Made by a program: the position numbers and the translations under genes. The notes beneath the pieces are model-generated. The model was not told the DNA's origin. It did not search any database and was given only the letters and a program-made list of their open reading frames with translations. Of a DNA stretch of 32,000 nt, positions 2,395 through 21,987 are shown piece after piece. This stretch comes from Flavobacteriaceae bacterium (GTDB taxonomy: Bacteria > Bacteroidota > Bacteroidia > Flavobacteriales > Flavobacteriaceae), in the NCBI GenBank assembly GCA_965224465.1, contig OZ245049.1, positions 2,250,001-2,282,000 of the forward strand. Direction: 5' to 3'. Position 1 is the stretch's first letter, and each line of letters starts with the position of its first letter.

Positions 2395-2448
2395 ATGAAA
2401 AAAGAACTACTTATTTTATTCCTCTTATTTCTAAACACAGCCTATTCA
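2395..2448 (+). other. Signal peptide of giant protein (SPase I type)
   Basis: MKKELLILFLLFLNTAYS/QIK: charged N-region, hydrophobic core, small residues at -3/-1. No Cys, so it is not a lipoprotein. Confidence 0.7.
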
Positions 2449-5400: not shown

Positions 5401-8400
5401 ACAAACATCACTACAAACACAAGTGACATTTCTGATATAGAAACCGAGCAAACAACGCAGAACACAAACATTACTGCAAATACAACAAACATCACTACAA
5501 ACTCAAGTGACATTGATGCCCTAGAAACTGAGCAAACTACTCAGAACACGAACATTGCGGCAAACACTTCCGACATCTCAACAAATACCACAAACATCAC
5601 CTCAAATGCGAGTGACATTGACGCCATAGAAACTGAACAAACAACGCAGAACACAAACATAGCAGCAAATACAAGTGACATTGATGCCCTAGAAACTGAG
5701 CAAACTACTCAAAATACTAATATTGCAGCAAACACTTCCAATATCTCAACAAATACCACAAACATCACCTCAAATGCGAGTGACATTGACGCCATAGAAA
5801 CTGAGCAAACTACTCAAAATACTAATATTGCTGCAAATACAACAAACATCACTACAAATGCGAGTGACATTTCTGATATAGAAATTGAGCAAACAACGCA
5901 GAATACAAACATCGCAGCAAATACAACAAACATCACTACAAACACAAGTGACATTTCTGATATAGAAACCGAGCAAACAACGCAGAACACAAACATTGCT
6001 GCAAATACAACAAACATCACTACAAACTCAAGTGACATTGATGCCCTAGAAACTGAGCAAACTACTCAGAACACGAACATTGCGGCAAACACTTCCGACA
6101 TCTCAACAAATACCACAAACATCACCTCAAATGCGAGTGACATTGACGCCATAGAAACTGAACAAACAACGCAGAACACAAACATAGCAGCAAATACAAG
6201 TGACATTGATGCCCTAGAAACTGAGCAAACTACTCAAAATACTAATATTGCAGCAAACACTTCCAATATCTCAACAAATACCACAAACATCACCTCAAAT
6301 GCGAGTGACATTGACGCCATAGAAACTGAGCAAACTACTCAAAATACTAATATTGCTGCAAATACAACAAACATCACTACAAATGCGAGTGACATTTCTG
6401 ATATAGAAATTGAGCAAACAACGCAGAATACAAACATCGCAGCAAATACAACAAACATCACTACAAACACAAGTGACATTTCTGATATAGAAACCGAGCA
6501 AACAACGCAGAACACAAATATTGCAGCAAACACTTCTAACATCTCAACAAACGCAAGTGATATTACTGCTATAGAAACTGAGCAAACTACTCAGAACACA
6601 AATATTGCAGCAAACGCTTCCGACATCTCAACAAATACAACAAACATCACCACAAATGCGAGTGACATTGACGCCATAGAAACTGAACAAACTACTCAAA
6701 ACACAAACATCGCGGCAAACACAAATGATATTTCTGATATAAAAACCGAGCAAACTACTCAGAATACAAATATTGCAGCAAACACTTCTAACATCTCAAC
6801 AAATACCACAAACATCACCTCAAATGCGAGTGACATTGACGCCATAGAAACTGAGCAAACTACTCAGAACACGAACATTGCGGCAAACACTTCCGACATC
6901 TCAACAAATACCACAAACATCACCACAAATACGAGTGACATTGACGCCATAGAAACTGAGCAAACTACTCAAAACACAAATATTGCAGCAAATACTTCTA
7001 ACATCACCACAAATGCGAGTGACATTGATGACATAGAAACCGAGCAAACTACTCAGAACACGAACATTGCGGCAAACACTTCCGACATCTCAACAAATAC
7101 AACAAACATCACCACAAGTGCGAGTGACATTGACGCCATAGAAACTGAACAAACTACTCAAAACACAAACATCGCAACAAACACTTCCAGTATCTCAACA
7201 AATACCACAAACATCACTACAAACGCAAGTGATATTGATACCCTAGAAACTGAACAAACAACACAGAATACAAATATTGCAACAAACACTTCTAACATCA
7301 CCACAAATACAAGTAACATTGATGCCATAGAAACTGAGCAAACTACTCAAAACACAAACATTGCGGCAAACACTTCTAACATCTCAACAAATACAACAAA
7401 CATCACCACAAATGCGAGTGACATTTCTGCTATAGAAACTGAACAAACAACGCAGAATACAAACATCGCAACAAATGCAAGTGACATTGACACCATAGAA
7501 ACCGAGCAAACAACACAGAACACAAATATTGCGGCAAACACAACAAACATCACCACAAATGCAAGCGATATTGACGCCATAGAAACTGAGCAAACTACTC
7601 AAAACACAAATATTGCAGCAAACACTTCCGACATCTCAACAAATACAACAAACATCACTACAAACTCAAGTGACATTGACGCCATAGAAACTGAGCAAAC
7701 AACACAGAATACAAATATTGCAGCAAACACTTCTAACATCACCACAAATGCGAGTGACATTTCTGCTATAGAAACTGAACAAACTACTCAAAACACTAAT
7801 ATTATAGCAAACACTTCTAACATCTCAACAAATACCACAAACATCACCACAAATGCGAGTGACATTTCTGATATAGAAACCGAGCAAACTACTCAAAACA
7901 CTAATATTACAGCAAACACTTCCAATATCTCAACAAATACCACAAACATCACCTCAAATGCGAGTGACATTGACGCCATAGAAACTGAGCAAACTACTCA
8001 AAATACTAATATTGCTGCAAATACAACAAACATCACTACAAATGCGAGTGACATTTCTGATATAGAAATTGAGCAAACAACGCAGAATACAAACATCGCA
8101 GCAAATACAACAAACATCACTACAAACACAAGTGACATTTCTGATATAGAAACCGAGCAAACAACGCAGAACACAAATATTGCAGCAAACACTTCTAACA
8201 TCTCAACAAACGCAAGTGATATTACTGCTATAGAAACTGAGCAAACTACTCAGAACACAAATATTGCAGCAAACGCTTCCGACATCTCAACAAATACAAC
8301 AAACATCACCACAAATGCGAGTGACATTGATGCCATAGAAACTGAACAAACTACTCAAAACACAAACATCGCGGCAAACACAAATGATATTTCTGATATA

Positions 8401-11400
8401 AAAACCGAGCAAACTACTCAGAATACAAATATTGCAGCAAACACTTCTAACATCTCAACAAATACCACAAACATCACCTCAAATGCGAGTGACATTGACG
8501 CCATAGAAACTGAGCAAACTACTCAGAACACGAACATTGCGGCAAATACAACAAACATCACTACAAATGCGAGTGACATTTCTGATATAGAAATTGAGCA
8601 AACAACGCAGAATACAAACATCGCAGCAAATACAACAAACATCACTACAAACACAAGTGACATTTCTGATATAGAAACCGAGCAAACAACGCAGAACACA
8701 AATATTGCAGCAAACACTTCTAACATCTCAACAAACGCAAGTGATATTACTGCTATAGAAACTGAGCAAACTACTCAGAACACAAATATTGCAGCAAACG
8801 CTTCCGACATCTCAACAAATACAACAAACATCACCACAAATGCGAGTGACATTGACGCCATAGAAACTGAACAAACTACTCAAAACACAAACATCGCGGC
8901 AAACACAAATGATATTTCTGATATAAAAACCGAGCAAACTACTCAGAATACAAATATTGCAGCAAACACTTCTAACATCTCAACAAATACCACAAACATC
9001 ACCTCAAATGCGAGTGACATTGACGCCATAGAAACTGAGCAAACTACTCAGAACACGAACATTGCGGCAAACACAACAAACATCACTACAAACTCAAGTG
9101 ACATTGATGCCTTAGAAACTGAGCAAACAACGCAGAACACGAACATTGCGGCAAACACTTCCAACACCTCAACAAATACCACAAACATCACCACAAATGC
9201 GAGTGACATTTCTGCTATAGAAACTGAACAAACTACTCAGAACACAAACATCGCAACAAATGCAAGTGACATTGACACCATAGAAACTGAGCAAACAACG
9301 CAGAACACAAACATAGCAACAAATACAAGTGATATTACTGCCATAGAAACTGAGCAAACTACTCAAAATACTAATATTGCTGCAAATACAACAAACATCA
9401 CTACAAATGCGAGTGACATTTCTGATATAGAAATTGAGCAAACAACGCAGAATACAAACATCGCAGCAAATACAACAAACATCACTACAAACACAAGTGA
9501 CATTTCTGATATAGAAACCGAGCAAACAACGCAGAACACAAATATTGCAGCAAACACTTCTAACATCTCAACAAACGCAAGTGATATTACTGCTATAGAA
9601 ACTGAGCAAACTACTCAGAACACAAATATTGCAGCAAACGCTTCCGACATCTCAACAAATACAACAAACATCACCACAAATGCGAGTGACATTGACGCCA
9701 TAGAAACTGAACAAACTACTCAAAACACAAACATCGCGGCAAACACAAATGATATTTCTGATATAAAAACCGAGCAAACTACTCAGAATACAAATATTGC
9801 AGCAAACACTTCTAACATCTCAACAAATACCACAAACATCACCTCAAATGCGAGTGACATTGACGCCATAGAAACTGAGCAAACTACTCAGAACACGAAC
9901 ATTGCGGCAAATACAACAAACATCACTACAAATGCGAGTGACATTTCTGATATAGAAATTGAGCAAACAACGCAGAATACAAACATCGCAGCAAATACAA
10001 CAAACATCACTACAAACACAAGTGACATTTCTGATATAGAAACCGAGCAAACAACGCAGAACACAAATATTGCAGCAAACACTTCTAACATCTCAACAAA
10101 CGCAAGTGATATTACTGCTATAGAAACTGAGCAAACTACTCAGAACACAAATATTGCAGCAAACGCTTCCGACATCTCAACAAATACAACAAACATCACC
10201 ACAAATGCGAGTGACATTGACGCCATAGAAACTGAACAAACTACTCAAAACACAAACATCGCGGCAAACACAAATGATATTTCTGATATAAAAACCGAGC
10301 AAACTACGCAGAATACAAATATTGCAGCAAACACTTCTAACATCACCACAAATACAAGCGGTATTACAGCCATAGAAACTGAGCAAACAACGCAGAATAC
10401 AAACATCGCAGCAAACACTTCCAGTATCTCAACAAATACCACAAACATCACCACAAATACGGGTGACATTGACGCCATAGAAACTGAGCAGACTACTCAA
10501 AACACAAACATAGCAACAAATACAACAAACATCACTACAAACTCAAGTGACATTGACGCCATAGAAACTGAACAAACTACTCAAAACACAAATATTGCAG
10601 CAAATACAAGTGATATTTCTGATATAAAAACTGAGCAAACTACTCAGAACACGAACATTGCGGCAAACACTTCCGACATCTCAACAAATACCACAAACAT
10701 CACCACAAATACGAGTGACATTGACGCCATAGAAACCGAGCAAACTACTCAGAATACAAATATTGCAGCAAATACAACAAACATCACTACAAACTCAAGT
10801 GACATTGACGCCATAGAAACTGAACAAACTACTCAAAACACAAACATCGCGGCAAATACAAGTGATATTTCTGATATAAAAACCGAGCAAACTACTCAGA
10901 ATACAAATATTGCAGCAAACACTTCTAACATCTCAACAAATACCACAAACATCACTACAAACGCAAGTGATATTACAAATCTAGAAACTGAGCAAACTAC
11001 TCAAAACACAAATATTGCAGCAAATACTTCTAACATCACCACAAATGCGAGTGACATTGATGACATAGAAACTGAGCAAACAACACAGAATACAAATATT
11101 GCAACAAATACATCTAACATCACTACAAACGCAAGTGATATTACTGCTATAGAAACCGAGCAAACTACTCAGAACACGAACATTGCGGCAAACACTTCCG
11201 ACATCTCAACAAATACCACAAACATCACCACAAATACGAGTGACATTGACGCCATAGAAACTGAGCAAACAACGCAGAACACAAACATTGCTGCAAATAC
11301 AACAAACATCACTACAAACTCAAGTGACATTGATGCCCTACAAACTGAGCAAACTACTCAGAACACGAACATTGCGGCAAACACTTCCGACATCTCAACA

Positions 11401-14400
11401 AATACCACAAACATCACCTCAAATGCGAGTGACATTGACGCCATAGAAACTGAACAAACTACTCAAAACACAAACATCGCGGCAAATACAAGTGATATTT
11501 CTGATATAAAAACCGAGCAAACTACTCAGAATACAAATATTGCAGCAAACACTTCTAACATCTCAACAAATACCACAAACATCACCTCAAATGCGAGTGA
11601 CATTTCTGCTATAGAAACTGAACAAACTACTCAAAACACAAACATCGCGGCAAACACAAATGATATTTCTGATATAAAAACCGAGCAAACTACTCAGAAT
11701 ACAAATATTGCAGCAAACACTTCCAACATCTCAACAAACACCACAAACATCACCACAAATGCGAGTGACATTGACGCCATAGAAACTGAGCAAACTACTC
11801 AAAACACAAACATCGCGGCAAACACAAGTGACATTTCTGATATAGAAACCGAGCAAACAACGCAGAACACAAATATTGCAGCAAACACTTCTAACATCTC
11901 AACAAATACAACAAACATCACTACAAACTCAAGTGACATTGACGCCATAGAAACTGAACAAACTACTCAAAACACAAATATTGCAGCAAATACAAGTGAT
12001 ATTTCTGATATAAAAACTGAGCAAACTACTCAGAACACGAACATTGCGGCAAACACTTCCGACATCTCAACAAATACCACAAACATCACCACAAATACGA
12101 GTGACATTGACGCCATAGAAACCGAGCAAACTACTCAGAATACAAATATTGCAGCAAATACAACAAACATCACTACAAACTCAAGTGACATTGACGCCAT
12201 AGAAACTGAACAAACTACTCAAAACACAAACATCGCGGCAAATACAAGTGATATTTCTGATATAAAAACCGAGCAAACTACTCAGAATACAAATATTGCA
12301 GCAAACACTTCTAACATCTCAACAAATACCACAAACATCACTACAAACGCAAGTGATATTACAAATCTAGAAACTGAGCAAACTACTCAAAACACAAATA
12401 TTGCAGCAAATACTTCTAACATCACCACAAATGCGAGTGACATTGATGACATAGAAACTGAGCAAACAACACAGAATACAAATATTGCAACAAATACATC
12501 TAACATCACTACAAACGCAAGTGATATTACTGCTATAGAAACCGAGCAAACTACTCAGAACACGAACATTGCGGCAAACACTTCCGACATCTCAACAAAT
12601 ACCACAAACATCACCACAAATACGAGTGACATTGACGCCATAGAAACTGAGCAAACAACGCAGAACACAAACATTGCTGCAAATACAACAAACATCACTA
12701 CAAACTCAAGTGACATTGATGCCCTACAAACTGAGCAAACTACTCAGAACACGAACATTGCGGCAAACACTTCCGACATCTCAACAAATACCACAAACAT
12801 CACCTCAAATGCGAGTGACATTGACGCCATAGAAACTGAACAAACTACTCAAAACACAAACATCGCGGCAAATACAAGTGATATTTCTGATATAAAAACC
12901 GAGCAAACTACTCAGAATACAAATATTGCAGCAAACACTTCTAACATCTCAACAAATACCACAAACATCACCTCAAATGCGAGTGACATTTCTGCTATAG
13001 AAACTGAACAAACTACTCAAAACACAAACATCGCGGCAAACACAAATGATATTTCTGATATAAAAACCGAGCAAACTACTCAGAATACAAATATTGCAGC
13101 AAACACTTCCAACATCTCAACAAACACCACAAACATCACCACAAATGCGAGTGACATTGACGCCATAGAAACTGAGCAAACTACTCAAAACACAAACATC
13201 GCGGCAAACACAAGTGACATTTCTGATATAGAAACCGAGCAAACAACGCAGAACACAAATATTGCAGCAAACACTTCTAACATCTCAACAAATACCACAA
13301 ACATCACCACAAATGCGAGTGACATTGACGCCATAGAAACTGAACAAACTACTCAAAACACAAACATCGCGGCAAATACAAGTGATATTTCTGATATAAA
13401 AACCGAGCAAACTACTCAGAATACTAATATTGCGGCAAACACTTCTAACATCTCAACAAATACCACAAACATCACCTCAAATGCGAGTGACATTTCTGCT
13501 ATAGAAACTGAACAAACAACGCAGAACGCAAATATTGCAACAAACACTTCCAACATCTCAACAAATACAAGTGACATTACTGCCTTAGAAACTGAGCAAA
13601 CTACGCAGAATACAAATATTGGAACGAATACAGCAGACATTTCGACAAACACGACAAGCATTACAAATCACATAGCCAATGACTTAGATATCGACCCTAC
13701 TAATGAAATTCAAGACATCAGTATAATCGGTAATAATTTAACGATTTCAAATGGTAGCACAGTAACAATACCTACATCAGATGGATCAGAAACAATTATA
13801 CAGGCAGGAAATGCAATAACTACAATAACTGGTAGTGGTACAACAGCCGATCCATATATTGTAACAGCCACACCTGCAACATTAACCGATAATGGAGACG
13901 GAACATATACCTTTGCAAACGGAATTGACACCGATGTAACATTTGCCTTGGTTGCTAACACTCCTGCTCCTATTGTAGGGAATTCAAATACAAAAACAGG
14001 TTGTGAAGCAACAGAACAAGGAGAAACAAGCACCATTACCTTAACTGGAGAAAATTTTACATCTGACACCGTCATAACCATTCCAGGACAAACAATAGAT
14101 TATGTAACAGTAGTAAGTTCTACAGAAATAATAGTAGGAATAACTGCTGGTGGAGTTTCTGGTGATTTTGACGTAACAGCAACAAATACAAATGGTTCTG
14201 GCACATTAACCAATGGATTCCATATTAGAAATCCTTTAGTTACTAATACTATTTCAACGTTAAGCACAGACAACACAATGAATTACAACGGGTCAACGCT
14301 AGTAAAAACAGGCGGTAATGGTTGGAATGGAAACGCAAACTCAACAGCACCTAACGGCTCTTTAGAAACGGCAAAAAACGGAGGCTATTCATTTACTGTA

Positions 14401-14724
14401 AATCAAAATAACAAATGGATGAGTATGGGAATAGATGCGAACCCTTCCTTAGCCCACTCATGGAATACTATAGATTATGGTTTTAGATTTTCCAGTAGTG
14501 GAACATATAGAATTTATGAAAATAATTCGATGAAATTATCAAGTACACCTTATAATGCCAATGATAATTTTGAAATATTAAAAGATTGTAATGGAAACAT
14601 TACGTACTACAGAAATGGTAGTTTAATTTACACTTCCACTAGTACTGCGACAAACGACTTGTTTATTGACACTTGTTTTTACCACCAAAATGCCTCAGTT
14701 TCTAACATAAAACTAACAAAATAA
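2395..14724 (+). CDS. Giant secreted repeat protein (4,109 aa): putative coiled-coil fibre / adhesin-like surface protein
   Basis: Single uninterrupted 12,330-nt ORF in AT-rich DNA, which chance cannot explain. Sec-type signal peptide. Repeat cores differ only by synonymous codons, which supports real translation. The functional call is inferred from architecture only. Confidence 0.9.
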   Translation: MKKELLILFLLFLNTAYSQIKIGNDPEIIDGNSLLELKSKEKVFVLTRINTYQMNLISPLEGAIIYNTDFQCIFQYNGILWENLCDSSSDNQTLNFDPITNILTLENGGTVDLSSFSSTDSQNLTLIENTLILENGGIVDLSKYLDNTDDQYFTDFSVSGTTLTISLENGGTKHVDLSAFEESTEIATNLEKITTNASDITAIETEQTTQNTNIAANASDIDALETEQTTQNTNIAANTSDIDALETEQTTQNTNIAANTSNISTNTTNITTNTSDISAIEIEQTTQNTNIAANASDIDALETEQTTQNTNIAANTTNIATNASDIDVIETEQTTQNTNIAANTTNITTNSSDIDALETEQTTQNTNIAANTTNITTNASDIDAIETVQTTQNTNITTNASDIDALETEQTTQNTNIAANTSNISTNTTNITTNASDIDAIETEQTTQNTNIAANTSNISTNASDITAIETEQTTQNTNIAANTSDISTNTSDISDIEIEQTTQNTNIAANTSDISDIKTEQTTQNTNIAANASDISTNTTNITTNASDISAIETEQTTQNTNIAANTSDIDALETEQTTQNTNIAANTSNISTNTTNITSNASDIDAIETKQTTQNTNIAANTTNITTNASDISDIEIEQTTQNTNIAANTTNITTNTSDISDIETEQTTQNTNIAANTTNITTNSSDIDALETEQTTQNTNIAANISDISTNTTNITSNASDIDAIETEQTTQNTNIAANTSDIDALETEQTTQNTNIAANTSNISTNTTNITSNASDIDAIETEQTTQNTNIAANTTNITTNASDISDIEIEQTTQNTNIAANTTNITTNTSDISDIETEQTTQNTNIAANTSNISTNASDITAIETEQTTQNTNIAANASDISTNTTNITTNASDIDAIETEQTTQNTNIAANTNDISDIKTEQTTQNTNIAANTSNISTNTTNITSNASDIDAIETEQTTQNTNIAANTTNITTNASDISDIEIEQTTQNTNIAANTTNITTNTSDISDIETEQTTQNTNITANTTNITTNSSDIDALETEQTTQNTNIAANTSDISTNTTNITSNASDIDAIETEQTTQNTNIAANTSDIDALETEQTTQNTNIAANTSNISTNTTNITSNASDIDAIETEQTTQNTNIAANTTNITTNASDISDIEIEQTTQNTNIAANTTNITTNTSDISDIETEQTTQNTNIAANTTNITTNSSDIDALETEQTTQNTNIAANTSDISTNTTNITSNASDIDAIETEQTTQNTNIAANTSDIDALETEQTTQNTNIAANTSNISTNTTNITSNASDIDAIETEQTTQNTNIAANTTNITTNASDISDIEIEQTTQNTNIAANTTNITTNTSDISDIETEQTTQNTNIAANTSNISTNASDITAIETEQTTQNTNIAANASDISTNTTNITTNASDIDAIETEQTTQNTNIAANTNDISDIKTEQTTQNTNIAANTSNISTNTTNITSNASDIDAIETEQTTQNTNIAANTSDISTNTTNITTNTSDIDAIETEQTTQNTNIAANTSNITTNASDIDDIETEQTTQNTNIAANTSDISTNTTNITTSASDIDAIETEQTTQNTNIATNTSSISTNTTNITTNASDIDTLETEQTTQNTNIATNTSNITTNTSNIDAIETEQTTQNTNIAANTSNISTNTTNITTNASDISAIETEQTTQNTNIATNASDIDTIETEQTTQNTNIAANTTNITTNASDIDAIETEQTTQNTNIAANTSDISTNTTNITTNSSDIDAIETEQTTQNTNIAANTSNITTNASDISAIETEQTTQNTNIIANTSNISTNTTNITTNASDISDIETEQTTQNTNITANTSNISTNTTNITSNASDIDAIETEQTTQNTNIAANTTNITTNASDISDIEIEQTTQNTNIAANTTNITTNTSDISDIETEQTTQNTNIAANTSNISTNASDITAIETEQTTQNTNIAANASDISTNTTNITTNASDIDAIETEQTTQNTNIAANTNDISDIKTEQTTQNTNIAANTSNISTNTTNITSNASDIDAIETEQTTQNTNIAANTTNITTNASDISDIEIEQTTQNTNIAANTTNITTNTSDISDIETEQTTQNTNIAANTSNISTNASDITAIETEQTTQNTNIAANASDISTNTTNITTNASDIDAIETEQTTQNTNIAANTNDISDIKTEQTTQNTNIAANTSNISTNTTNITSNASDIDAIETEQTTQNTNIAANTTNITTNSSDIDALETEQTTQNTNIAANTSNTSTNTTNITTNASDISAIETEQTTQNTNIATNASDIDTIETEQTTQNTNIATNTSDITAIETEQTTQNTNIAANTTNITTNASDISDIEIEQTTQNTNIAANTTNITTNTSDISDIETEQTTQNTNIAANTSNISTNASDITAIETEQTTQNTNIAANASDISTNTTNITTNASDIDAIETEQTTQNTNIAANTNDISDIKTEQTTQNTNIAANTSNISTNTTNITSNASDIDAIETEQTTQNTNIAANTTNITTNASDISDIEIEQTTQNTNIAANTTNITTNTSDISDIETEQTTQNTNIAANTSNISTNASDITAIETEQTTQNTNIAANASDISTNTTNITTNASDIDAIETEQTTQNTNIAANTNDISDIKTEQTTQNTNIAANTSNITTNTSGITAIETEQTTQNTNIAANTSSISTNTTNITTNTGDIDAIETEQTTQNTNIATNTTNITTNSSDIDAIETEQTTQNTNIAANTSDISDIKTEQTTQNTNIAANTSDISTNTTNITTNTSDIDAIETEQTTQNTNIAANTTNITTNSSDIDAIETEQTTQNTNIAANTSDISDIKTEQTTQNTNIAANTSNISTNTTNITTNASDITNLETEQTTQNTNIAANTSNITTNASDIDDIETEQTTQNTNIATNTSNITTNASDITAIETEQTTQNTNIAANTSDISTNTTNITTNTSDIDAIETEQTTQNTNIAANTTNITTNSSDIDALQTEQTTQNTNIAANTSDISTNTTNITSNASDIDAIETEQTTQNTNIAANTSDISDIKTEQTTQNTNIAANTSNISTNTTNITSNASDISAIETEQTTQNTNIAANTNDISDIKTEQTTQNTNIAANTSNISTNTTNITTNASDIDAIETEQTTQNTNIAANTSDISDIETEQTTQNTNIAANTSNISTNTTNITTNSSDIDAIETEQTTQNTNIAANTSDISDIKTEQTTQNTNIAANTSDISTNTTNITTNTSDIDAIETEQTTQNTNIAANTTNITTNSSDIDAIETEQTTQNTNIAANTSDISDIKTEQTTQNTNIAANTSNISTNTTNITTNASDITNLETEQTTQNTNIAANTSNITTNASDIDDIETEQTTQNTNIATNTSNITTNASDITAIETEQTTQNTNIAANTSDISTNTTNITTNTSDIDAIETEQTTQNTNIAANTTNITTNSSDIDALQTEQTTQNTNIAANTSDISTNTTNITSNASDIDAIETEQTTQNTNIAANTSDISDIKTEQTTQNTNIAANTSNISTNTTNITSNASDISAIETEQTTQNTNIAANTNDISDIKTEQTTQNTNIAANTSNISTNTTNITTNASDIDAIETEQTTQNTNIAANTSDISDIETEQTTQNTNIAANTSNISTNTTNITTNASDIDAIETEQTTQNTNIAANTSDISDIKTEQTTQNTNIAANTSNISTNTTNITSNASDISAIETEQTTQNANIATNTSNISTNTSDITALETEQTTQNTNIGTNTADISTNTTSITNHIANDLDIDPTNEIQDISIIGNNLTISNGSTVTIPTSDGSETIIQAGNAITTITGSGTTADPYIVTATPATLTDNGDGTYTFANGIDTDVTFALVANTPAPIVGNSNTKTGCEATEQGETSTITLTGENFTSDTVITIPGQTIDYVTVVSSTEIIVGITAGGVSGDFDVTATNTNGSGTLTNGFHIRNPLVTNTISTLSTDNTMNYNGSTLVKTGGNGWNGNANSTAPNGSLETAKNGGYSFTVNQNNKWMSMGIDANPSLAHSWNTIDYGFRFSSSGTYRIYENNSMKLSSTPYNANDNFEILKDCNGNITYYRNGSLIYTSTSTATNDLFIDTCFYHQNASVSNIKLTK
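2449..2934 (+). other. N-terminal head: conserved Bacteroidota-type N-domain plus three LENGG modules
   Basis: aa 19-85 (NSLLELKSKEKVFVLTRINTYQMNLISPLEGAIIYNTD...YNGILWENL) resembles, from memory, the N-terminal module seen in many Bacteroidota surface or tail-fiber-like proteins. Three roughly 27-aa modules follow: TLNFDPITNILTLENGGTVDLSSF, NLTLIENTLILENGGIVDLSKYLD and FSVSGTTLTISLENGGTKHVDLSAF. Confidence 0.5.
4113..6850 (+). repeat. 525-bp (175-aa, 6-unit) higher-order repeat zone with a 1575-bp super-period
   Basis: Sequence at 4141 recurs at 4666. Identical antisense-ORF translations recur at 4195/4720/5770/6295 (a variant at 5245), at 4239/5814, and at 4764/6339. The same block types reappear at 7954-8726 and 9319-10091. 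Confidence 0.9.
10515..13295 (+). repeat. Perfect 1,386-bp (462-aa) tandem duplication inside the array
   Basis: Line-by-line comparison of 10518-11400 with 11904-12786 found no mismatch. The 11821-11909 stretch also matches 13207-13295. The copies diverge at about 11910/13296. Identical antisense ORFs at 10981 and 12367 have the same 1,386-bp offset. Confidence 0.9.
13693..13773 (+). other. Fourth LENGG-like module immediately after the repeat array
   Basis: DPTNEIQDISIIGNNLTISNGSTVTIP resembles the three N-terminal modules (xNQTLxF...NxLTLENGGTVDL). It is followed by TLTDNGDGTYTFANGIDTDVTF. Confidence 0.45.
13963..14235 (+). other. IPT/TIG-like Ig-fold domain
   Basis: PAPIVG...GETSTITLTGENFTSDTVITIPGQTIDYVTVVSSTEIIVGITAGGVSGDFDVTATNTNGSGTLTNGFHI follows the P-x-I...G-x-x-(I/L)-T-(I/L)-x-G-x-N-F...V-x-(I/V)-G...S-x-x-x-I-x-V pattern typical of IPT/TIG domains. 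Judged by eye only. Confidence 0.5.
14236..14721 (+). other. C-terminal ~160-aa beta-sandwich / lectin-like (LamG/ConA-like) domain
   Basis: GGNGWNGNANS...GGYSFTVNQNNKWMSMGID...IDYGFRFSSSGTYRIYENNSMKL...DNFEILKDCNGNITYYRNGSLIYTS shows alternating beta-strand-like pattern with aromatic and Gly/Asn turns. No YPNP / KLIK-type T9SS CTD pattern was seen. Confidence 0.4.
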
Positions 14725-15130: not shown

Positions 15131-15175
15131 AAACAAAAAAAAACTGTCTCAAAAAAATGAAACAGTTTTTTATTA
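15131..15175. terminator. Bidirectional intrinsic terminator between giant gene region and ctaD
   Basis: Stem aaactgt-tc (15141-15150) / ga-acagttt (15159-15168) with one mismatch. It is flanked by an A-run upstream and a T-run downstream, so it reads as hairpin plus U-tract on both strands. It lies 15-50 nt past the ctaD stop. Confidence 0.55.
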
Positions 15176-15189: not shown

Positions 15190-16941
15190 TTACGAAGGTA
15201 TTTCTCCTTCTTTTAGAGGAACATTTTGCGGAACAAAATCTTCATCCCATCCTGGCTTACTATAATCATAAGCCCAACGGTGAACTTCTGGAATTGCTCC
15301 AGGCCAATTTCCATGCACATGTTCCACAGGAGTCGTCCATTCCAACGTATTGGAATTCCATGGATTCTGAGTTGCTTTTTTACCCCTATAAATACTCATA
15401 AAGAAGTTCGCTAAAAATATAATTTGAGCAGCCCCTCCAAGAATGGCAAATAAGGTAATTACAATATTAATATCTTGCACATCGTCAAACAACGGAAATG
15501 CAGTATTGTTATAATATCTACGTGGTAATCCAGCCAATCCAACAAAATGCATTGGAAAGAAAACACCATAGGCGGCGACTGCTGTAATCCAAAAATGCCA
15601 GTATCCTAAAGTTTTATTCATCATTCTCCCATACATTTTAGGGAACCAATGATACACACCCGCAAACATTCCGTAAATAGCAGACACACCCATCACCAAG
15701 TGAAAATGCGCCACTACAAAGTAAGTGTCATGGACATTTATATCCAAGGCTGAATCTCCTAAAACCAATCCTGTCAATCCACCTGTAATAAAAGTAGAAA
15801 CAAGTCCTATAGAAAATAACATGGCTGGATTCATTTGCAGATTCCCTTTCCATAAAGTCGTTAAATAGTTAAATGATTTTACAGCTGATGGAATGGCAAT
15901 TAACAAGGTTGTAAAAGTAAATACAGACCCCAAGAAAGGATTCATTCCAGACACAAACATATGATGACCCCAAACAATAGTAGACAAGAATGCTATGGCT
16001 ATAATCGATGCAATCATGGCACGGTACCCAAAAATAGGTTTTCTAGAATTTGTAGAAATTACTTCAGAAGTAATACCTAATGCTGGCAATAATACAATAT
16101 ACACCTCTGGATGTCCTAGAAACCAAAATAGATGTTCGAACAGCACAGGTGAACCTCCTTGATAATGCAGCACTTCACCGTTTATAAAAATATCAGACAA
16201 AAAGAATGATGTTCCGAAACTACGATCAAAAATTAATAATAAGGCAGCTGACAACAATACTGGAAATGAAACTACTCCAATAATAGCAGTTACAAAAAAG
16301 GTCCAGATAGTTAAAGGCAAACGTGTCATTTTCATACCCACGGTACGTAAATTAAGCACGGTTACAATATAATTTAATGATCCCAACAAAGAGGATGCAA
16401 TAAAAATAGCCATAGAAATCAACCACAATGTCATTCCCATCCCAGAGCCTGGCATTGCTTGTGGCAAGGCACTTAGAGGAGGATAAATAGTCCATCCTGC
16501 AGCTGCAGGTCCTGCTTCCACAAATAAGGAAATCAGCATTAATAAACTAGATAAGAAAAACAACCAGTAAGAGACCATATTCAAAAATCCAGAAGCCATA
16601 TCACGAGCTCCAATTTGCAATGGAATTAATAAATTACTAAACGTTCCACTCAGTCCAGCTGTAAGTACAAAAAACACCATAATGGTTCCGTGAATAGTCA
16701 CTAAGGCTAAGTACATATCTGGAGTCATTACTCCATCAACTTGATGAGGGCCTAAAAAGGCTTCGATTAGGGTAAATGAATGGTCTGGCCAAGCTATTTG
16801 TAACCGAAACATCATGGACATTAAAACGCCAATGACTCCCATAAAAATACCTGTCACCAAGTATTGTTTTGAAATCATTTTATGATCGGTACTAAAAATA
16901 TATTTTGTTACAAAAGTTTCTTTGTGATGATGCGCTGACAT
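15190..16941 (-). CDS. ctaD: Cytochrome c oxidase subunit I (heme-copper oxidase, aa3-type)
   Basis: 583 aa, polytopic. Carries signature motifs GHPEVYIVLLPALG, WGHHMF (CuB His pair) and VVAHFHLVM (heme ligands). Confidence 0.95.
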   Translation of the reverse strand: MSAHHHKETFVTKYIFSTDHKMISKQYLVTGIFMGVIGVLMSMMFRLQIAWPDHSFTLIEAFLGPHQVDGVMTPDMYLALVTIHGTIMVFFVLTAGLSGTFSNLLIPLQIGARDMASGFLNMVSYWLFFLSSLLMLISLFVEAGPAAAGWTIYPPLSALPQAMPGSGMGMTLWLISMAIFIASSLLGSLNYIVTVLNLRTVGMKMTRLPLTIWTFFVTAIIGVVSFPVLLSAALLLIFDRSFGTSFFLSDIFINGEVLHYQGGSPVLFEHLFWFLGHPEVYIVLLPALGITSEVISTNSRKPIFGYRAMIASIIAIAFLSTIVWGHHMFVSGMNPFLGSVFTFTTLLIAIPSAVKSFNYLTTLWKGNLQMNPAMLFSIGLVSTFITGGLTGLVLGDSALDINVHDTYFVVAHFHLVMGVSAIYGMFAGVYHWFPKMYGRMMNKTLGYWHFWITAVAAYGVFFPMHFVGLAGLPRRYYNNTAFPLFDDVQDINIVITLFAILGGAAQIIFLANFFMSIYRGKKATQNPWNSNTLEWTTPVEHVHGNWPGAIPEVHRWAYDYSKPGWDEDFVPQNVPLKEGEIPS

Positions 16942-17015
16942 AGCTCTAATTTTGTTAGTTGTTAGTTACTAGTATTTGATTGCTAGTTATTGATGCTAGA
17001 TATTGGTACTACTTT

Positions 17016-18023
17016 TTAGTTCAGTACTTGAGCAATTGTTTTCTGAGATTTTAACCAAGTATTAAATGCTTCTTCTTCTTGTACTACAATTTTCATTTGC
17101 ATATTGTAATGAGAGGAACCACAAATTTTGTTACATAATAATAAGTAATCAAATTCGTAGGCATCTTCACCTTTCGCTTTTCTTATTTTATTAATCCCAG
17201 CAACCTTAGCAATGGTCGCAGTATTTACTCTCATTTCTTCAGTAGTAAACTTGGGTGTAAAAGAAAATTGAGTAATCATCCCAGGGACACAGTTCATTTG
17301 CGCTCTAAAATGCGGCATATAAGCTGAGTGTAATACATCTTGGGAACGAAATTTAAAAATCACTTGACGTCCTTTAGGTAAATACAATACACGCGTTGGA
17401 ATATCATCTTGGGCATTTTTATCGGTCATATCAACACCCATGGTATTCTTTCCTTTAATGTTTCTAACATTCCCCCTACCTAGAGTTTGATCAGCACCAG
17501 CATAGCGAGCTTCCCATTGAAATTGTTGGGCATACACTTCAACAATTAAAGGGTCTTTAGCATCTGAAACATCCATAAAATTATTCCATGCCCATAATCC
17601 ATAAATTACAAGGACAGACAATACAATAGTTGGAACAGTGGTCCAAATTAACTCTAGTTTATGGCTATCCGCATAAAAAAGTGCTTTTGTTCCTTTCTTA
17701 CCTCTGTATTTAAAGGCAAAATAAAACAATAAAAATTGAGTAATTGCTTGAACAAATAGGATCAGCAACATGGTAATTACATATAAGTTATCGTAGTGCT
17801 CTCCTTCTATCGAAGCCGATTCGGGAAGTAATACAACATTGTAAGCCACTAAACAGTAGATCATCAATACATAAAAAAAGACACCAAACGCAGCGAATAA
17901 GTATCCCTGTGTATTATTATCTTTCTCGGTAGCGATGACACCTTTTAGATTAAAAATATTTGTAATTTGCCATAAAGCAATAGCAGTCACTATCGCAATA
18001 AAAATGTAAATTAATGCAGTCAT
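17016..18023 (-). CDS. coxB: Cytochrome c oxidase subunit II (no fused cytochrome c domain)
   Basis: 335 aa with two or three N-terminal TM helices. CuA ligand pattern DVLHSAYMPHF ... CNKICGSSHYNM (H...CxxxCxxxHxxM). No CxxCH motif is present. Confidence 0.9.
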   Translation of the reverse strand: MTALIYIFIAIVTAIALWQITNIFNLKGVIATEKDNNTQGYLFAAFGVFFYVLMIYCLVAYNVVLLPESASIEGEHYDNLYVITMLLILFVQAITQFLLFYFAFKYRGKKGTKALFYADSHKLELIWTTVPTIVLSVLVIYGLWAWNNFMDVSDAKDPLIVEVYAQQFQWEARYAGADQTLGRGNVRNIKGKNTMGVDMTDKNAQDDIPTRVLYLPKGRQVIFKFRSQDVLHSAYMPHFRAQMNCVPGMITQFSFTPKFTTEEMRVNTATIAKVAGINKIRKAKGEDAYEFDYLLLCNKICGSSHYNMQMKIVVQEEEAFNTWLKSQKTIAQVLN

Positions 18024-18056
18024 TATAGTTTGTTAGTTAGTAATAGTGAGCCAAAT

Positions 18057-18090
18057 ATAAAAAAAATCCTGAACATAACCAGTTCAGGAT
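18057..18090 (-). terminator. Intrinsic terminator between actF and coxB
   Basis: 9-bp stem atcctgaac (18066-18074) / gttcaggat (18082-18090) with a 7-nt loop. On the minus strand it is followed by a T-run (complement of the A-run at 18057-18065). It sits 28 nt past the actF stop. Confidence 0.55.
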
Positions 18091-18117
18091 TTTATTATAC
18101 CTTTTTTTTTATATTTT

Positions 18118-19458
18118 TTAATAGTGAAAACCTTCACTTTCTTTAAGATACGGATTGTTTTTTACTACAAGTGGAGCTTTTGATAAAGCATTAAATACCA
18201 CATAAATAAATATCCCTGCAATCAACAATACAGCACCTATTTCTGGAATTCCAATAAACCAATGTGTTCCTACAGTTGCAGGCATCACCATTACGAAGAT
18301 GTCTATATAATGCCCTATAAGGATTACAATACCTGTAACCATCACAAACCAATTTAGGCGTTTAAAATCGCTATTCATCAATACGAGTAATGGGAATACA
18401 AAATTTAATCCGACCATTCCTAAAAACGGCAAACGATAATCTTCAAATCTTGTAATAAAATAAGTTACCTCCTCTGGAATATTTGCATACCATATCAACA
18501 TGAATTGTGAAAACCATAAATACGTCCAGAAAACACTGAATCCAAACATGTATTTAGCTAAATCATGTAAATGACTCTTGTTTACTACTTCTAAATACCC
18601 TTGTCCTTTTAGGTACATGGTAACCAAAGCAATTACTGTAACAGCAGATACGATAGCACTCGAAAATATATACCAACCGAATAAGGTAGAGAACCAGTGT
18701 GGATCTAAGGACATAATCCAGTCCCAAGACATCATAGATTCCGTGATTAAGAAAAACACTAAAAACCCTGCTGATCGCTTGAATAATTTACGATAATTCC
18801 CAGTATCAACAATATCTTGAGCCTTTGTTAATTTACGAGAATGCCATTGGAAAAAAGACCAACCTCCGATATAAATAACAGCTCTTATTAAAAAGAAAGG
18901 TACATTTAAGTATCCTTCTTTATTTTGCAATAATTGATCTCCAGCAACTACATCAGCATCCATCCATATAAAAAGATGATTCATATGCATTCCTGATAAT
19001 ACCAAAAACACAAATAACAAAATACCTCCTATTGGTAAATAAGCAGCGATGGCTTCCATTACTCGAAACAATACAATAGACCATCCTGCCTGAGTTGCAT
19101 TCTGAATTGCATAAAAAGCAAGTGCTGTTAATGAAATTATTAAGAAAAAGAATATCGCCACATACAATGCAGACCAAGGTCTATTTTGCAATTGGTGTAA
19201 AACATGGAGCGCATGTGCATCGTGTGCCTCCTCCGTACTATGAGCATCTGTTGTATTATGACTTTCCGTTGTAGTTGTCTCATGTGATGCTTCGGCATGT
19301 GTATCAACAGCATGCGTATCATGACTTTCGTGAGCCATCATTTCTTTGACTTCCTCTACCGTACTAGGCGTAGATAAAAATCCGTAAGTAACGCCTAGAA
19401 GCCCAACAATCATTAAGGCAAACGAAAATGTTTTTAATTTACTTGAAAATGTATACAT
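18118..19458 (-). CDS. actF: Alternative Complex III subunit ActF (polytopic NrfD-like membrane subunit; quinol:cytochrome c oxidoreductase)
   Basis: 446 aa and strongly hydrophobic. It is the last gene of the actABCDEF order, directly upstream of the cox genes. It carries a His/Thr/Glu-rich insert after the first TM helix. Confidence 0.7.
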   Translation of the reverse strand: MYTFSSKLKTFSFALMIVGLLGVTYGFLSTPSTVEEVKEMMAHESHDTHAVDTHAEASHETTTTESHNTTDAHSTEEAHDAHALHVLHQLQNRPWSALYVAIFFFLIISLTALAFYAIQNATQAGWSIVLFRVMEAIAAYLPIGGILLFVFLVLSGMHMNHLFIWMDADVVAGDQLLQNKEGYLNVPFFLIRAVIYIGGWSFFQWHSRKLTKAQDIVDTGNYRKLFKRSAGFLVFFLITESMMSWDWIMSLDPHWFSTLFGWYIFSSAIVSAVTVIALVTMYLKGQGYLEVVNKSHLHDLAKYMFGFSVFWTYLWFSQFMLIWYANIPEEVTYFITRFEDYRLPFLGMVGLNFVFPLLVLMNSDFKRLNWFVMVTGIVILIGHYIDIFVMVMPATVGTHWFIGIPEIGAVLLIAGIFIYVVFNALSKAPLVVKNNPYLKESEGFHY

Positions 19459-19485
19459 ATCTTTAAATTCTATCTTCCTTAAGTA

Positions 19486-20043
19486 TTATTTAATTAAATC
19501 ACTTCTGAGTTGTTCCACATACATGACTATTTGCCAACGCTCTTTTTCTGTTAGTTGAGAAGCGTGAGATCCCATCATATTTCTACCATACATAATCACA
19601 TGATAAATAGATCCCTCAGTAATATCACGAGAACTATAATTAGGAATCCCTAAGAATTTTTCGCGTTTTACAAGTACACCATCTCCTGCTCCCTTTTTTC
19701 CGTGACAAGAAATACAGTAAATGTTGTACATAGCTTTTCCATTCTTCATATTGGCATCATTCTTTTCAAAGGGAGATTTTAACTCCACTTTAGCCAATTC
19801 ATATCCTTGATTTGTATTTTCATAGGCGTAAGGAAACGCATGTCCACGAGCAATGGTGCCTTCTACAGGTTTTTGTACTGTCATCCCATTTTTTAAAATA
19901 GGATTTACACTATACGTTTCATACCCAATAGACTCATACATATCTGGCATGTATTGATAATTCCTTTTTGATTTATCTGTCCAACATGATGTGATCATCA
20001 CAGACATCATCAATAGGGCTATATATTTAATCGAGTTTTTCAT
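19486..20043 (-). CDS. actE: Alternative Complex III subunit ActE (monoheme cytochrome c, probable lipoprotein)
   Basis: 185 aa. Signal peptide ends in the lipobox-like MITSC. There is a single CISCH heme-binding motif. The position between actD and actF fits. Confidence 0.8.
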   Translation of the reverse strand: MKNSIKYIALLMMSVMITSCWTDKSKRNYQYMPDMYESIGYETYSVNPILKNGMTVQKPVEGTIARGHAFPYAYENTNQGYELAKVELKSPFEKNDANMKNGKAMYNIYCISCHGKKGAGDGVLVKREKFLGIPNYSSRDITEGSIYHVIMYGRNMMGSHASQLTEKERWQIVMYVEQLRSDLIK

Positions 20044-20048
20044 TTCTC

Positions 20049-21954: not shown

Positions 21955-21987
21955 AATTTTTATTTAATTACTCTATCTGTTTATAAT

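What the first reader, a model, noticed from the sequence alone, without database searches (positions are those of the whole stretch)
13691..14724. No recognisable sorting or anchoring signal on a giant Bacteroidota surface-type protein; LENGG modules cap both ends of the rod
Seen: the N-terminus is a plain SPase-I signal with no lipobox Cys. The C-terminus is an IPT-like domain followed by a ~160-aa lectin-like beta-sandwich ending in ...SVSNIKLTK. I could not find type A T9SS CTD hallmarks (YPNP-like start, a ~80-aa sandwich ending in a K-x-x-K strand), type B CTD hallmarks, an autotransporter barrel, RTX/T1SS repeats or LPXTG. A module resembling the three N-terminal xxLTLENGGTVDL repeats recurs right after the array (13693-13773). 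Established: large gliding adhesins and secreted proteins of Flavobacteriia normally cross the outer membrane via T9SS using a C-terminal domain. Inference: one possibility is a cryptic CTD variant. Another is that the conserved N-terminal head is the anchor with the lectin-like domain as the distal tip. A third is a different export route. Which end is cell-proximal is unknown.
Basis: partly seen in the sequence, partly recalled or inferred. Interest (0 to 1): 0.6.

Follow-up and report, generated by a model that had tools for sequence, protein, structure and literature searches.

The report
Giant tail-fibre-like fibre lacking sorting tag
A 4109-residue marine Flavobacteriaceae protein looks like a half-micron, three-stranded fibre with a phage-type sugar-binding tip and no secretion tag of its own; its relatives also lack one but are almost always encoded next to a small tag-bearing partner protein, which is missing from this window.

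Summary
ORF 2395-14724 (4109 aa) has a cleavable non-lipoprotein signal peptide. It has no T9SS type A or B CTD and no other sorting domain, and the same HMM libraries do detect CTDs in this lineage. It ends in an Ig-like domain plus a ~155-aa SPRY/ConA-like sandwich.

- The N-terminal "head" is a widespread domain, precomputed as PF26696 PTL_trimer in close homologues. It defines a large Flavobacteriaceae family of phage-tail-fibre-like fibres.
- No tip class in that family has a CTD.
- 67 of 88 complete fibre genes are followed directly (median gap 2.5 nt) by a conserved ~385-aa protein with a type B T9SS sorting domain. Head and partner co-diverge.
- The window gene is an orphan. It has no partner within the 2.4 kb upstream or 17 kb downstream, and it shares no synteny with any family locus.
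- The rod is 511 heptads in one unbroken register with an IxxNTxx motif, which implies a trimeric coiled coil of about 0.5 µm.
- The tip module recurs in phages of Tenacibaculum and Cellulophaga.

Best reading: the N-terminal head trimerises and sits next to the cell, and the lectin tip is distal. Export and anchoring through a partner encoded elsewhere in the genome is inferred, not shown.

The parts
2395..14724 (+). Giant fibre gene, 4109 codons plus stop
   Evidence: Single intact ORF. Matches no Pfam family at E<=0.1.
2395..2448 (+). Signal peptide, aa 1-18 (MKKELLILFLLFLNTAYS); predicted SPase I cleavage before Q19; no lipobox Cys
   Evidence: Read. The equivalent '...AQ|[IV]K[IV]G' junction is seen in about 140 relatives.
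2449..2649 (+). N-terminal head, aa 19-85. Small alpha/beta domain with a conserved Cys pair (C72, C85). Homologous to proteins precomputed as PF26696 PTL_trimer. Probable trimerisation and cell-proximal module.
   Evidence: 68-72% identical to P0002 and P0043, both precomputed as PF26696. 2026 representative proteins match at E<=1e-3. AF2 core pLDDT about 94. Top, non-significant fold matches are collagen XV/XVIII trimerisation domains and the trimeric phage proteins CBA120 tailspikes, Mtd and HylP.
2683..2934 (+). Three LENGG modules (aa 97-116, 129-143 and 157-172, extending to about 180)
   Evidence: HMM built from homologues' modules: i-E 3e-8, 9e-4 and 5e-6. The same modules appear in P0001-P0018.
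2941..13668 (+). Rod, aa 183-3758: 3576 aa = 511 heptads in one unbroken register, made of 124 units of 21, 28 or 35 aa. Heptad positions: a = I/Q; d = N/Q/I/L; e = T (IxxNTxx).
   Evidence: Heptad statistics and unit lengths. Only weak PDB sequence hits, all to coiled coils: M protein, UspA1 stalk and P22 gp26 (E 0.1-0.35). Relative L097 has about 4 heptads between the same flanking modules.
13696..13779 (+). Post-rod 'NEIQ' beta module, aa 3768-3795 (PTNEIQDISIIGNNLTISNGSTVTIPTS)
   Evidence: NEIQ-module HMM i-E 5e-9; LENGG HMM only 0.088. Homologous stretches in P0023, P0027 and P0028.
13780..13971 (+). Linker with the 'GSGTTADPYIVTA...DNGDGTYTF' motifs, shared with P0021 and P0022
   Evidence: Alignment A3. 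Low-confidence in the monomer model.
13972..14229 (+). Ig-like (IPT-like) beta sandwich, about aa 3860-3945
   Evidence: AF2 model residues 95-180, pLDDT 88-94. No Pfam TIG hit.
14257..14721 (+). C-terminal SPRY/ConA-like lectin-type sandwich, about aa 3955-4109; the putative distal binding tip
   Evidence: Foldseek PDB: SPRY domains, E 9e-6 to 1e-4, TMt about 0.6; CBM66. BFVD: marine phage protein E 4.6e-17, Tenacibaculum phage PTm1 E 2.4e-11, Cellulophaga phage phi13:1 E 5e-8. 40% identical to P0021 over 93% of the query.
15138..15171 (.). A/T-flanked hairpin between the convergent giant gene and cox1; a possible bidirectional terminator
   Evidence: one terminator-like site against 0.2 expected.

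Best explanation
The gene encodes an extreme member of a Flavobacteriaceae family of phage-tail-fibre-like, homotrimeric surface fibres.

Proposed mechanism:
1. Sec exports the protein and SPase I cleaves before Q19.
2. The conserved 67-aa N-terminal head, which carries a conserved Cys pair that could form a disulfide, nucleates trimerisation and is the cell-proximal end.
3. Three LENGG beta modules lead into 511 uninterrupted IxxNTxx-type heptads, giving a trimeric coiled coil of about 0.5 µm.
4. An NEIQ module, an Ig-like domain and a SPRY/ConA-like lectin domain form the distal binding tip. This module is exchanged with phages of marine Flavobacteriaceae.

The protein has no T9SS tag of its own because none of the family does. 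The family instead relies on a co-encoded ~385-aa adaptor that carries a type B T9SS sorting domain. That adaptor is the only recognisable link to outer-membrane export and surface attachment. For this orphan gene the adaptor would have to be supplied from another locus.

Shown: the architecture, the family, the absence of a CTD, the linkage and co-divergence of fibre and partner, and the phage relationship of the tip.
Inferred: trimer state, orientation, physical head-adaptor contact, T9SS dependence and supply of the adaptor in trans.
For: No CTD, with positive controls: against 32, 49.

Family:
- 118 confirmed relatives, with the best 78 loci kept.
- About 140 head-bearing ORFs of 165 to over 3253 aa, usually 2-4 per locus. 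Their fibres are collagen, coiled coil or LENGG repeats, and their tips are swapped.
- The head matches 2026 representative proteins.
- P0021 has the same head and the same tip without a rod.

Family-wide lack of a CTD.

Partner:
- 91 ORFs in 66 loci.
- 67 of 88 complete fibre genes are followed directly by the partner, and 5 more after one further fibre gene.
- Median gap 2.5 nt; 45 of 52 gaps are <=20 nt.
- CHU_C and TIGR04131 hits.
- Mantel r = 0.72 between head and adjacent-partner distances; 0 of 999 global and 3 of 999 within-locus permutations reach it.

Trimer: collagen in relatives; IxxNTxx heptads; head fold matches.

Tip.

[quoted passage not shown] Bdellovibrio MAT fibres have a conserved N-terminal proximal domain and variable tips (PMC10769870).
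Against: - The window has no partner. The best tblastn hit of 91 partners is E 0.015. It also shares no synteny with any family locus. The rest of the genome could not be examined, because three exact-sequence look-ups found nothing.
- No interaction between head and partner was tested.
- My two literature searches on T9SS found no report of export of an untagged protein by piggybacking.
- The head also occurs as 3-9 internal copies in other proteins, which fits a generic trimerisation unit better than a dedicated docking site.
- The head's fold matches are not significant (best E 0.36).
- The rod is 27% Thr, 18% Asn and 9% Ser, a composition with low helix propensity. The coiled-coil assignment rests on periodicity alone.
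- The trimer state is not shown for this protein.
Confidence: 0.5

Rival explanations
1. Cryptic CTD: the SPRY-like C-terminal domain, or its last strands, is itself an unrecognised T9SS signal, as reported for F. johnsoniae ChiA (recalled from memory, not checked here).
For: The protein has a Sec signal and a C-terminal beta sandwich ending in a K-rich strand (NIKLTK). CTD models can miss divergent signals.
Against: - No CTD hit at E<=1.
- The fold is SPRY/ConA-like, of about 155 aa.
- The same domain closes a signal-less protein on a phage-like contig and lies internally in 1300-3100-aa virion proteins.
- Family members carry at least 7 unrelated tip classes with no CTD. A signal located in the tip would therefore need to have evolved many times.
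Confidence: 0.07
2. Partner-independent route: the fibre crosses or leaves the outer membrane by another path, such as an unknown translocon, vesicles or lysis, or stays attached through the head binding a surface glycan or protein. The neighbouring type B CTD protein would then be only a co-functioning surface protein. This matches the unresolved situation of the Bdellovibrio MAT fibres.
For: - The window gene stands alone, apparently intact and with its heptad register preserved over 511 heptads.
- MAT fibres reach the surface and their N-terminal binding partner is still unidentified; the paper never uses the word 'secretion' (PMC10769870).
- The head looks like a trimerisation unit, not an anchor.
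Against: Tight translational coupling and co-divergence of fibre and partner across 66 loci. No other export signal or machinery gene is seen in the window.
Confidence: 0.25
3. Not a working surface fibre: a periplasmic protein, a decaying orphan copy, or an ORF whose length is inflated by mis-assembly of repeats.
For: - It is an orphan outside the usual locus, with an IS30-like transposase 13 kb away.
- A 1.7-kb block is duplicated at 97.4% identity.
- Relatives often break assemblies: many loci end inside the fibre gene.
Against: - 12.3 kb of open frame with no stop and no register shift over 511 heptads.
- Most repeat copies are only 75-87% identical at the DNA level, so they can be assembled.
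- The head, the Cys pair and the tip are intact and conserved.
Confidence: 0.1
4. Prophage, tailocin or contractile-injection-system tail fibre rather than a cellular appendage.
For: The tip and the wider head superfamily are phage-like: Peptidase_S74, phage Collar and DUF2793, and BFVD matches.
Against: - The protein has a Sec signal peptide.
- The window has no phage or CIS genes. The neighbours are housekeeping genes: cytochrome oxidase, alternative complex III and IF-2.
- The PHROGs scan of the head and tip found nothing.
- Related loci sit in conserved chromosomal contexts.
Confidence: 0.03

Closest known systems
Bdellovibrio bacteriovorus mosaic adhesive trimer (MAT) fibres (PMC10769870; NCBIfam NF053851 Bdello_MAT_N)
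   Same: Signal peptide, then a conserved beta-rich N-terminal domain presumed to be cell-proximal, a long trimeric fibre, and swappable phage-like C-terminal tips. Multiple paralogues per genome. The way the N-terminal domain is held on the cell is unknown.
   Different: - The window protein does not match Bdello_MAT_N (no hit at E<=1). Only the distant hit P0028 does.
- Different phylum.
- The head is about 67 aa rather than about 130 aa.
- The flavobacterial family has a coupled type B CTD partner gene.
- The rod here is one uninterrupted 3576-aa coiled coil.
Trimeric autotransporter adhesin stalks (for example Moraxella UspA1, 2qih)
   Same: Asn/Thr-rich heptads of the IxxNTxx type with N at position d. 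From memory, this is characteristic of trimeric coiled coils (Hartmann et al. 2009). The shape is a long rod with a head.
   Different: - No C-terminal YadA-type beta-barrel anchor and no TAA Pfam domains.
- The polarity would be opposite, with the constant end N-terminal.
- The only sequence hit to UspA1 is a non-significant E 0.21.
Phage tail fibres and tailspikes (CBA120 TSPs, Bordetella phage Mtd, HylP; S74-chaperoned fibres)
   Same: Constant N-terminal trimeric module, fibre, and variable receptor-binding tip. The Ig+SPRY tip has structural relatives in Tenacibaculum and Cellulophaga phage proteins. Wider head-superfamily members carry Peptidase_S74 and Collar domains.
   Different: The protein has a Sec signal peptide and a chromosomal housekeeping context. 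There are no PHROG hits to the head or tip.
T9SS type B CTD adhesins (SprB and others) with PorP/SprF shuttles (PMC9143113, PMC12618676)
   Same: Giant repetitive Flavobacteriia surface-type protein. The partner of the family is a bona fide type B CTD protein. There is precedent for orphan substrates served by a distant shuttle.
   Different: - The fibre itself has no CTD.
- No PorP/SprF-like gene stood out among the 14 most widely shared ORF clusters of the loci, but those clusters were not scanned against family models.
- SprB is not a coiled coil.
Collagen XV/XVIII (multiplexin) trimerisation domain (3n3f, 3hsh)
   Same: Best, though non-significant, fold match to the head: TMt 0.64, probability 0.96. 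Several relatives place the head directly before collagen GXY repeats.
   Different: E 0.36 and 22% identity. This is analogy at most.

Membership tests
T9SS type A CTD cargo | C-terminal Por_Secre_tail domain (TIGR04183 / PF18962) | tested here: not met
   No hit at E<=1 on the last 414 aa. Full-length protein: 0 Pfam families.
T9SS type A CTD cargo | N-terminal Sec signal peptide | tested here: met
   MKKELLILFLLFLNTAYS|Q read. No predictor was available.
T9SS type B CTD cargo | C-terminal TIGR04131 / PF13585 CHU_C domain | tested here: not met
   No hit. The same models score the partner proteins at E 1e-22 to 1e-29 and 9e-7 to 4e-15.
T9SS type B CTD cargo | Adjacent porP/sprF-like shuttle gene (common but not obligatory) | tested here: not met
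   All window ORFs of >=100 aa read as a FAD-dependent enzyme, cytochrome oxidase, alternative complex III, an IS30-like transposase, IF-2 and a 121-aa ORF. This rests on reading the translations, not on an HMM.
Bacteroidota surface lipoprotein | Lipobox Cys at the end of the signal peptide | tested here: not met
   The first Cys is residue 72.
PTL_trimer-headed fibre family of Flavobacteriaceae (PF26696) | Head domain directly after the signal peptide | tested here: met
   68-72% identity to P0002 and P0043, which are precomputed as PF26696. Head HMM consensus from 135 relatives. PF26696 itself is not in the local Pfam copy, so the curated threshold could not be applied.
PTL_trimer-headed fibre family of Flavobacteriaceae (PF26696) | Fibre segment plus a modular C-terminal tip shared with other members | tested here: met
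   LENGG modules. The tip is 40% identical to that of P0021, which has the same head.
PTL_trimer-headed fibre family of Flavobacteriaceae (PF26696) | Downstream, translationally coupled ~385-aa type B CTD partner gene (my operational feature, seen in 67+5 of 88 complete genes) | tested here: not met
   tblastn of 91 partners against the window: best E 0.015. Only 2.4 kb upstream and 17 kb downstream are visible.
PTL_trimer-headed fibre family of Flavobacteriaceae (PF26696) | Homotrimeric state | not testable with these tools
   Only indirect evidence: collagen in relatives, IxxNTxx heptads, and fold matches to trimerisation units.
Bdellovibrio MAT fibres | NF053851 Bdello_MAT_N N-terminal domain | tested here: not met
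   No hit at E<=1. P0028, a weak hit to the post-rod module, scores 1.2e-11, below the curated cut-off.
Trimeric autotransporter adhesins | C-terminal YadA-like membrane anchor barrel | tested here: not met
   No Pfam hit. The C-terminus folds as Ig plus SPRY.
Trimeric autotransporter adhesins | Heptad stalk with N at position d (IxxNTxx) | tested here: met
   a = I 387 / Q 123; d = N 263 / Q 123 / I 104 / L 19; e = T 176, over 511 heptads. This is a pattern match only.
SPRY / ConA-like lectin fold | Beta-sandwich fold match, and Pfam SPRY above threshold | tested here: inconclusive
   Fold: E 9e-6, TMt 0.62. Pfam SPRY scores only 17.6-18.8 bits on the homologue P0021, against a cut-off of 26.3, and gives no hit on the window protein itself.

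The most novel reading that the evidence does not exclude
Marine Flavobacteriaceae export and mount CTD-less, phage-tail-fibre-like trimers by an adaptor mechanism. A dedicated ~385-aa type B CTD protein would bind the conserved N-terminal head in the periplasm, carry the folded trimer through the SprA translocon and then hold it on the surface. One adaptor pool could serve orphan fibres encoded elsewhere, including this fibre of about 0.5 µm. That would be a piggyback mode of T9SS secretion and a bacterial counterpart of swapping phage receptor-binding proteins.
Probability: 0.3. Interest if true: 0.8.

Novelty: new variant of a known kind. Interest (0 to 1): 0.62.

Why it matters
T9SS cargo is currently recognised by its own C-terminal domain. 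A large, widespread family of surface-type fibres that never carries that tag, but is always paired with a small tagged protein, would mean that genome-wide T9SS secretome predictions miss a whole class of adhesins. It would also make adaptor-mediated secretion directly testable.

The rod is also of interest for protein design and biophysics. It has 511 heptads with no stutter and a polar core of Asn and Gln layers, so it would be one of the longest continuous coiled coils predicted.

The tips are shared with phages of Tenacibaculum and Cellulophaga. This suggests an exchange of binding modules between bacteria and their phages, with possible roles in aggregation, particle or algal attachment, or phage decoying in marine Flavobacteriaceae.

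Tried and rejected
- Exact-sequence look-ups of the giant protein, the upstream FAD enzyme and cox1, to find the source genome and more flank: none is on record. The genome-wide presence of a partner or of T9SS genes therefore could not be checked.
- The search for related loci with a 7-sequence head alignment failed because no conserved stretch was available. A 3-sequence alignment worked.
- The source genome is not among the GTDB representatives. The best head identity is 68%, to a Urechidicola MAG.
- PHROGs on the head and tip: nothing.
- Rfam on the whole window: nothing.
- PDB sequence search with a rod segment: only non-significant coiled-coil hits.
- Literature searches for 'PTL_trimer', for T9SS piggybacking, and for type B CTD combined with fibre and trimer: no paper on this family.
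- S74 chaperone for the '...LEKIEELFLHTIEQEKKI...' tip class: not confirmed, no PF13884 hit at E<=0.01. S74 is present in wider superfamily members.
- A pseudogenised partner in the 1.1-kb upstream gap or in the downstream gap: rejected.
- Synteny between the window and the family loci: none.
- A multimer prediction of head plus partner was not possible, because the tool handles one chain and loci-derived sequences are not accepted.
Full report
**What is in the window**

The finding lies at the 3' end of one ORF, 2395..14724 (+), 4109 aa. Its neighbours are housekeeping genes:
- a FAD-dependent enzyme upstream (36..1274);
- convergent cytochrome c oxidase subunits I and II, and the alternative complex III genes (15190..26673, minus strand);
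- an IS30-like transposase (28150..29154);
- IF-2.

A 1.1-kb AT-rich gap with no ORF of >=60 aa precedes the gene.

**Checking the observation**

The N-terminus is MKKELLILFLLFLNTAYS|QIKIG, a classical n-h-c signal with A at -3 and S at -1. It has no Cys, so it is not a lipoprotein. Q at +1 fits the Bacteroidota Q-rule (sequence reading plus my own knowledge).

HMM scans gave no T9SS type A or B CTD, autotransporter, RTX or LPXTG match:
- the N-terminal 308 aa and C-terminal 414 aa against Pfam and NCBIfam at E<=1;
- the whole protein against Pfam at E<=0.1, with 0 families.

The models do work in this lineage. The partner proteins described below score CHU_C at E 1e-22 to 1e-29 and TIGR04131 at up to 4e-15.

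An AlphaFold2 model of aa 3766-4109 (4-sequence alignment, mean pLDDT 69.5) gives two domains:
- a confident Ig-like sandwich (model residues 95-180);
- a ~155-aa terminal sandwich.

Foldseek places the terminal sandwich with SPRY domains (4qt6, E 9e-6, TMt 0.62) and CBM66. No T9SS CTD is in the top 50.

The module right after the rod (aa 3768-3795) is real, but it belongs to a sister 'NEIQ' type:
- a NEIQ-module HMM built from homologues scores it at i-E 5e-9;
- a LENGG-module HMM scores it only at i-E 0.088;
- the LENGG HMM scores the three N-terminal modules at 3e-8 to 9e-4.

Codon 3766 begins at 13690, not 13691.

**The rod**

Residues 183-3758 are 3576 aa, or 511 heptads, in a single register with no stutter.
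- Position a is I (387) or Q (123).
- Position d is N (263), Q (123), I (104) or L (19).
- Position e is mostly T.

This is the IxxNTxx 'N at d' pattern. From memory, it marks trimeric coiled coils such as trimeric autotransporter stalks. At about 0.148 nm per residue the rod would be about 0.53 µm long.

It is built of 124 units of 21, 28 or 35 aa. PDB sequence hits are weak and all to coiled coils: M protein, UspA1 and P22 gp26.

The closest relative, P0043 on L097, has a head 72% identical. It has the same head, the same three LENGG modules and the same post-rod module, but only about 4 heptads between them. Its continuation has short 5-15-heptad segments of the same unit type. The rod is therefore a lineage-specific expansion.

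**The head defines a family**

Residues 19-85 are the only part conserved across relatives. Close homologues are precomputed as PF26696 'PTL_trimer'. That model is absent from the local Pfam copy, so I could not apply it directly.

A scan of GTDB species representatives gave 118 confirmed relatives. The best 78 loci were kept. All but one (a Flammeovirgaceae MAG, L077) are marine Flavobacteriaceae, including Maribacter, Flagellimonas, Cellulophaga, Aquimarina, Tenacibaculum and Ulvibacterium.

These loci hold about 140 head-bearing ORFs, usually 2-4 side by side. All begin with a signal peptide followed by Q[IVL]K[IV]G. They range from 165 to over 3253 aa. Their fibres are made of collagen GXY repeats, coiled coil or LENGG repeats. 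Their C-terminal tips fall into at least 7 recurrent, unrelated classes.

An exhaustive phmmer search found 2026 representative proteins at E<=1e-3. In some of these the domain occurs 3-9 times internally, together with Peptidase_S74, phage Collar or Fib_succ_major domains. Its GxLVYNTD...YNGxxW part matches the C-terminal part of DUF2793.

An AF2 model of the head (52-sequence alignment, core pLDDT about 94) has no significant PDB match. Its top matches are nevertheless trimerisation units: collagen XV/XVIII trimerisation domains (TMt 0.64), CBA120 tailspikes, Mtd and HylP. Two conserved cysteines (C72 and C85) could form a disulfide, which would fit an exported protein.

**No member has a CTD, but nearly all have a tagged neighbour**

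28 representative C-termini covering all tip classes, including this one, gave no CTD hit in Pfam or NCBIfam.

A ~385-aa protein is encoded just downstream of the fibre genes instead. It consists of a signal peptide, an unassigned ~290-aa domain and a CHU_C / TIGR04131 type B T9SS sorting domain.
- There are 91 copies in 66 loci.
- 67 of 88 complete fibre genes are followed directly by it.
- 5 more are followed by it after one further fibre gene.
- The remaining 16 are mostly frameshifted ORFs with a partner further on.
- The stop-to-start gap has a median of 2.5 nt, and 45 of 52 gaps are <=20 nt.

Head distances and adjacent-partner distances correlate, with Mantel r = 0.72. None of 999 permutations reach this value. 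When partners are shuffled only within loci, r falls to 0.48 +/- 0.09 and only 3 of 999 shuffles reach the observed value. Fibre and partner therefore diverge as a pair.

RefSeq calls the partner a 'gliding motility-associated C-terminal domain-containing protein', and the fibres 'hypothetical' or 'beta strand repeat-containing' proteins.

**This gene is an orphan**

None of the 91 partners matches the window; the best tblastn E is 0.015. None of the 78 loci shares the window's flanking genes.

The nearest relatives with the same heptad type (L003, L004) do have a partner downstream.

I could not recover the source genome. Whether a partner exists elsewhere in it is unknown.

**The tip is a phage-type module**

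- P0021 has a signal peptide, the head, a short linker, and the same Ig+SPRY tip at 40% identity. It is a rod-less version of this protein, and it sits in a fibre-fibre-partner array.
- P0024 has the same tip but no signal peptide. It lies on a contig next to tail-spike and tail-fibre PHROGs and an endolysin.
- 15 IMG/VR contigs carry the domain inside virion proteins of 1300-3100 aa.
- Against predicted viral structures, the best matches are a marine phage protein (E 4.6e-17), a Tenacibaculum phage PTm1 protein (E 2.4e-11) and a Cellulophaga phage phi13:1 structural protein (E 5e-8).

**Interpretation**

The architecture is constant N-terminal module, then trimeric fibre, then swappable phage-like tip. 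This parallels phage fibres and the Bdellovibrio MAT fibres. In MAT fibres the invariant N-terminal domain is thought to sit next to the cell, and its binding partner is still unknown (PMC10769870).

By that comparative logic, the N-terminus here is proximal and the SPRY-like lectin domain is the distal tip.

The missing sorting signal is a property of the family, not an oddity of this protein. The only recognisable connection to outer-membrane export is the coupled type B CTD partner.
- Type B CTD proteins are retained on the surface by PorP/SprF-like proteins (PMC9143113).
- Orphan type B substrates in F. johnsoniae share a shuttle encoded elsewhere (PMC12618676). Service in trans therefore has a precedent.

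That the partner binds the head and carries or anchors the trimer is my inference. It was not tested here, and my searches found no paper describing it.

**Rivals**

- A partner-independent route (0.25).
- A non-functional or mis-assembled orphan (0.10).
- A cryptic CTD (0.07).
- A phage or tailocin fibre (0.03).

**Verdict**

The 'head as proximal end, lectin tip distal' option is the best supported, and the cryptic-CTD option is unlikely.

The system (CTD-less tail-fibre-like trimers paired with a small type B CTD protein) appears undescribed, though the head domain is already in Pfam.

I rate it a new variant of a known kind, with interest 0.62. Confidence is about 0.85 for family membership and architecture, and about 0.4 for partner-mediated T9SS export.

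Noticed in passing
window 1275-2394: A 1.1-kb AT-rich non-coding gap lies upstream of the giant gene. It has no ORF of >=60 aa (one 57-aa GTG ORF at 1649-1822), no Rfam family and no remnant of a partner gene. It may be a long regulatory or leader region.
   Followed up: partly
window 10507-12230 vs 11893-13616: A 1.7-kb block in the rod is duplicated at 97.4% identity with a shift of 1386 nt (exactly 66 heptads). Other repeat blocks are only 75-87% identical. This indicates recent in-frame tandem expansion, and this part of the assembly needs long-read confirmation.
   Followed up: partly
window 28150-29154: An IS30-like transposase gene lies 13 kb downstream, beside a 121-aa signal-peptide ORF (26891-27256). 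A related IS30 fragment is in L040, and IS21 and DDE elements flank the closest relative in L097. Mobile elements may explain why this fibre gene has been dispersed.
   Followed up: no
window 15190-26673: A complete-looking operon on the minus strand: cytochrome c oxidase subunits I and II, alternative complex III-like genes and a multihaem cytochrome c. It is ordinary respiratory housekeeping and is convergent with the giant gene.
   Followed up: no
P0039, P0040, P0042, P0044, P0045, P0053: The head domain also occurs as 3-9 tandem or internal copies in other large proteins. These end in Peptidase_S74, phage Collar, Fib_succ_major or Kelch domains. Part of the head matches the C-terminal part of DUF2793. 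The domain is therefore a general trimer module, not only an N-terminal cap.
   Followed up: partly
P0023 and P0010, C-terminal ~100 aa: Two relatives end in a further conserved domain (ARIFYPPSI...YYYVT[FY]YD...SLINVVFVVK). It matches no Pfam or NCBIfam family, and its role is unknown.
   Followed up: partly
L003-L080, upstream of the fibre arrays: Many family loci share conserved flanking genes: a 258-aa signal-peptide protein family (107 ORFs in 50 loci, often in tandem on the opposite strand), a 168-aa family (45 loci) and a ~768-aa protein (44 loci). The arrays therefore occupy a conserved chromosomal site, which the window gene does not share. None of these clusters was scanned against family models.
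   Followed up: no
L010, L011, L017, L024, L027-L031 and others (C-termini): The commonest tip class ends in '...PDYVFxKYF...HLPG[IV]xSAxE...LEKIEELFLHTIEQEKKIxxL...'. This looks like an intramolecular-chaperone helix but gave no Peptidase_S74 hit at E<=0.01. It may be a divergent self-cleaving chaperone.
   Followed up: partly
L081 (contig carrying P0024): A phage-like contig from a Logan assembly has tightly packed same-strand genes. They include tail-spike and tail-fibre PHROG matches and an M15 endolysin. One of its proteins has the same Ig+SPRY tip as the window protein.
   Followed up: partly
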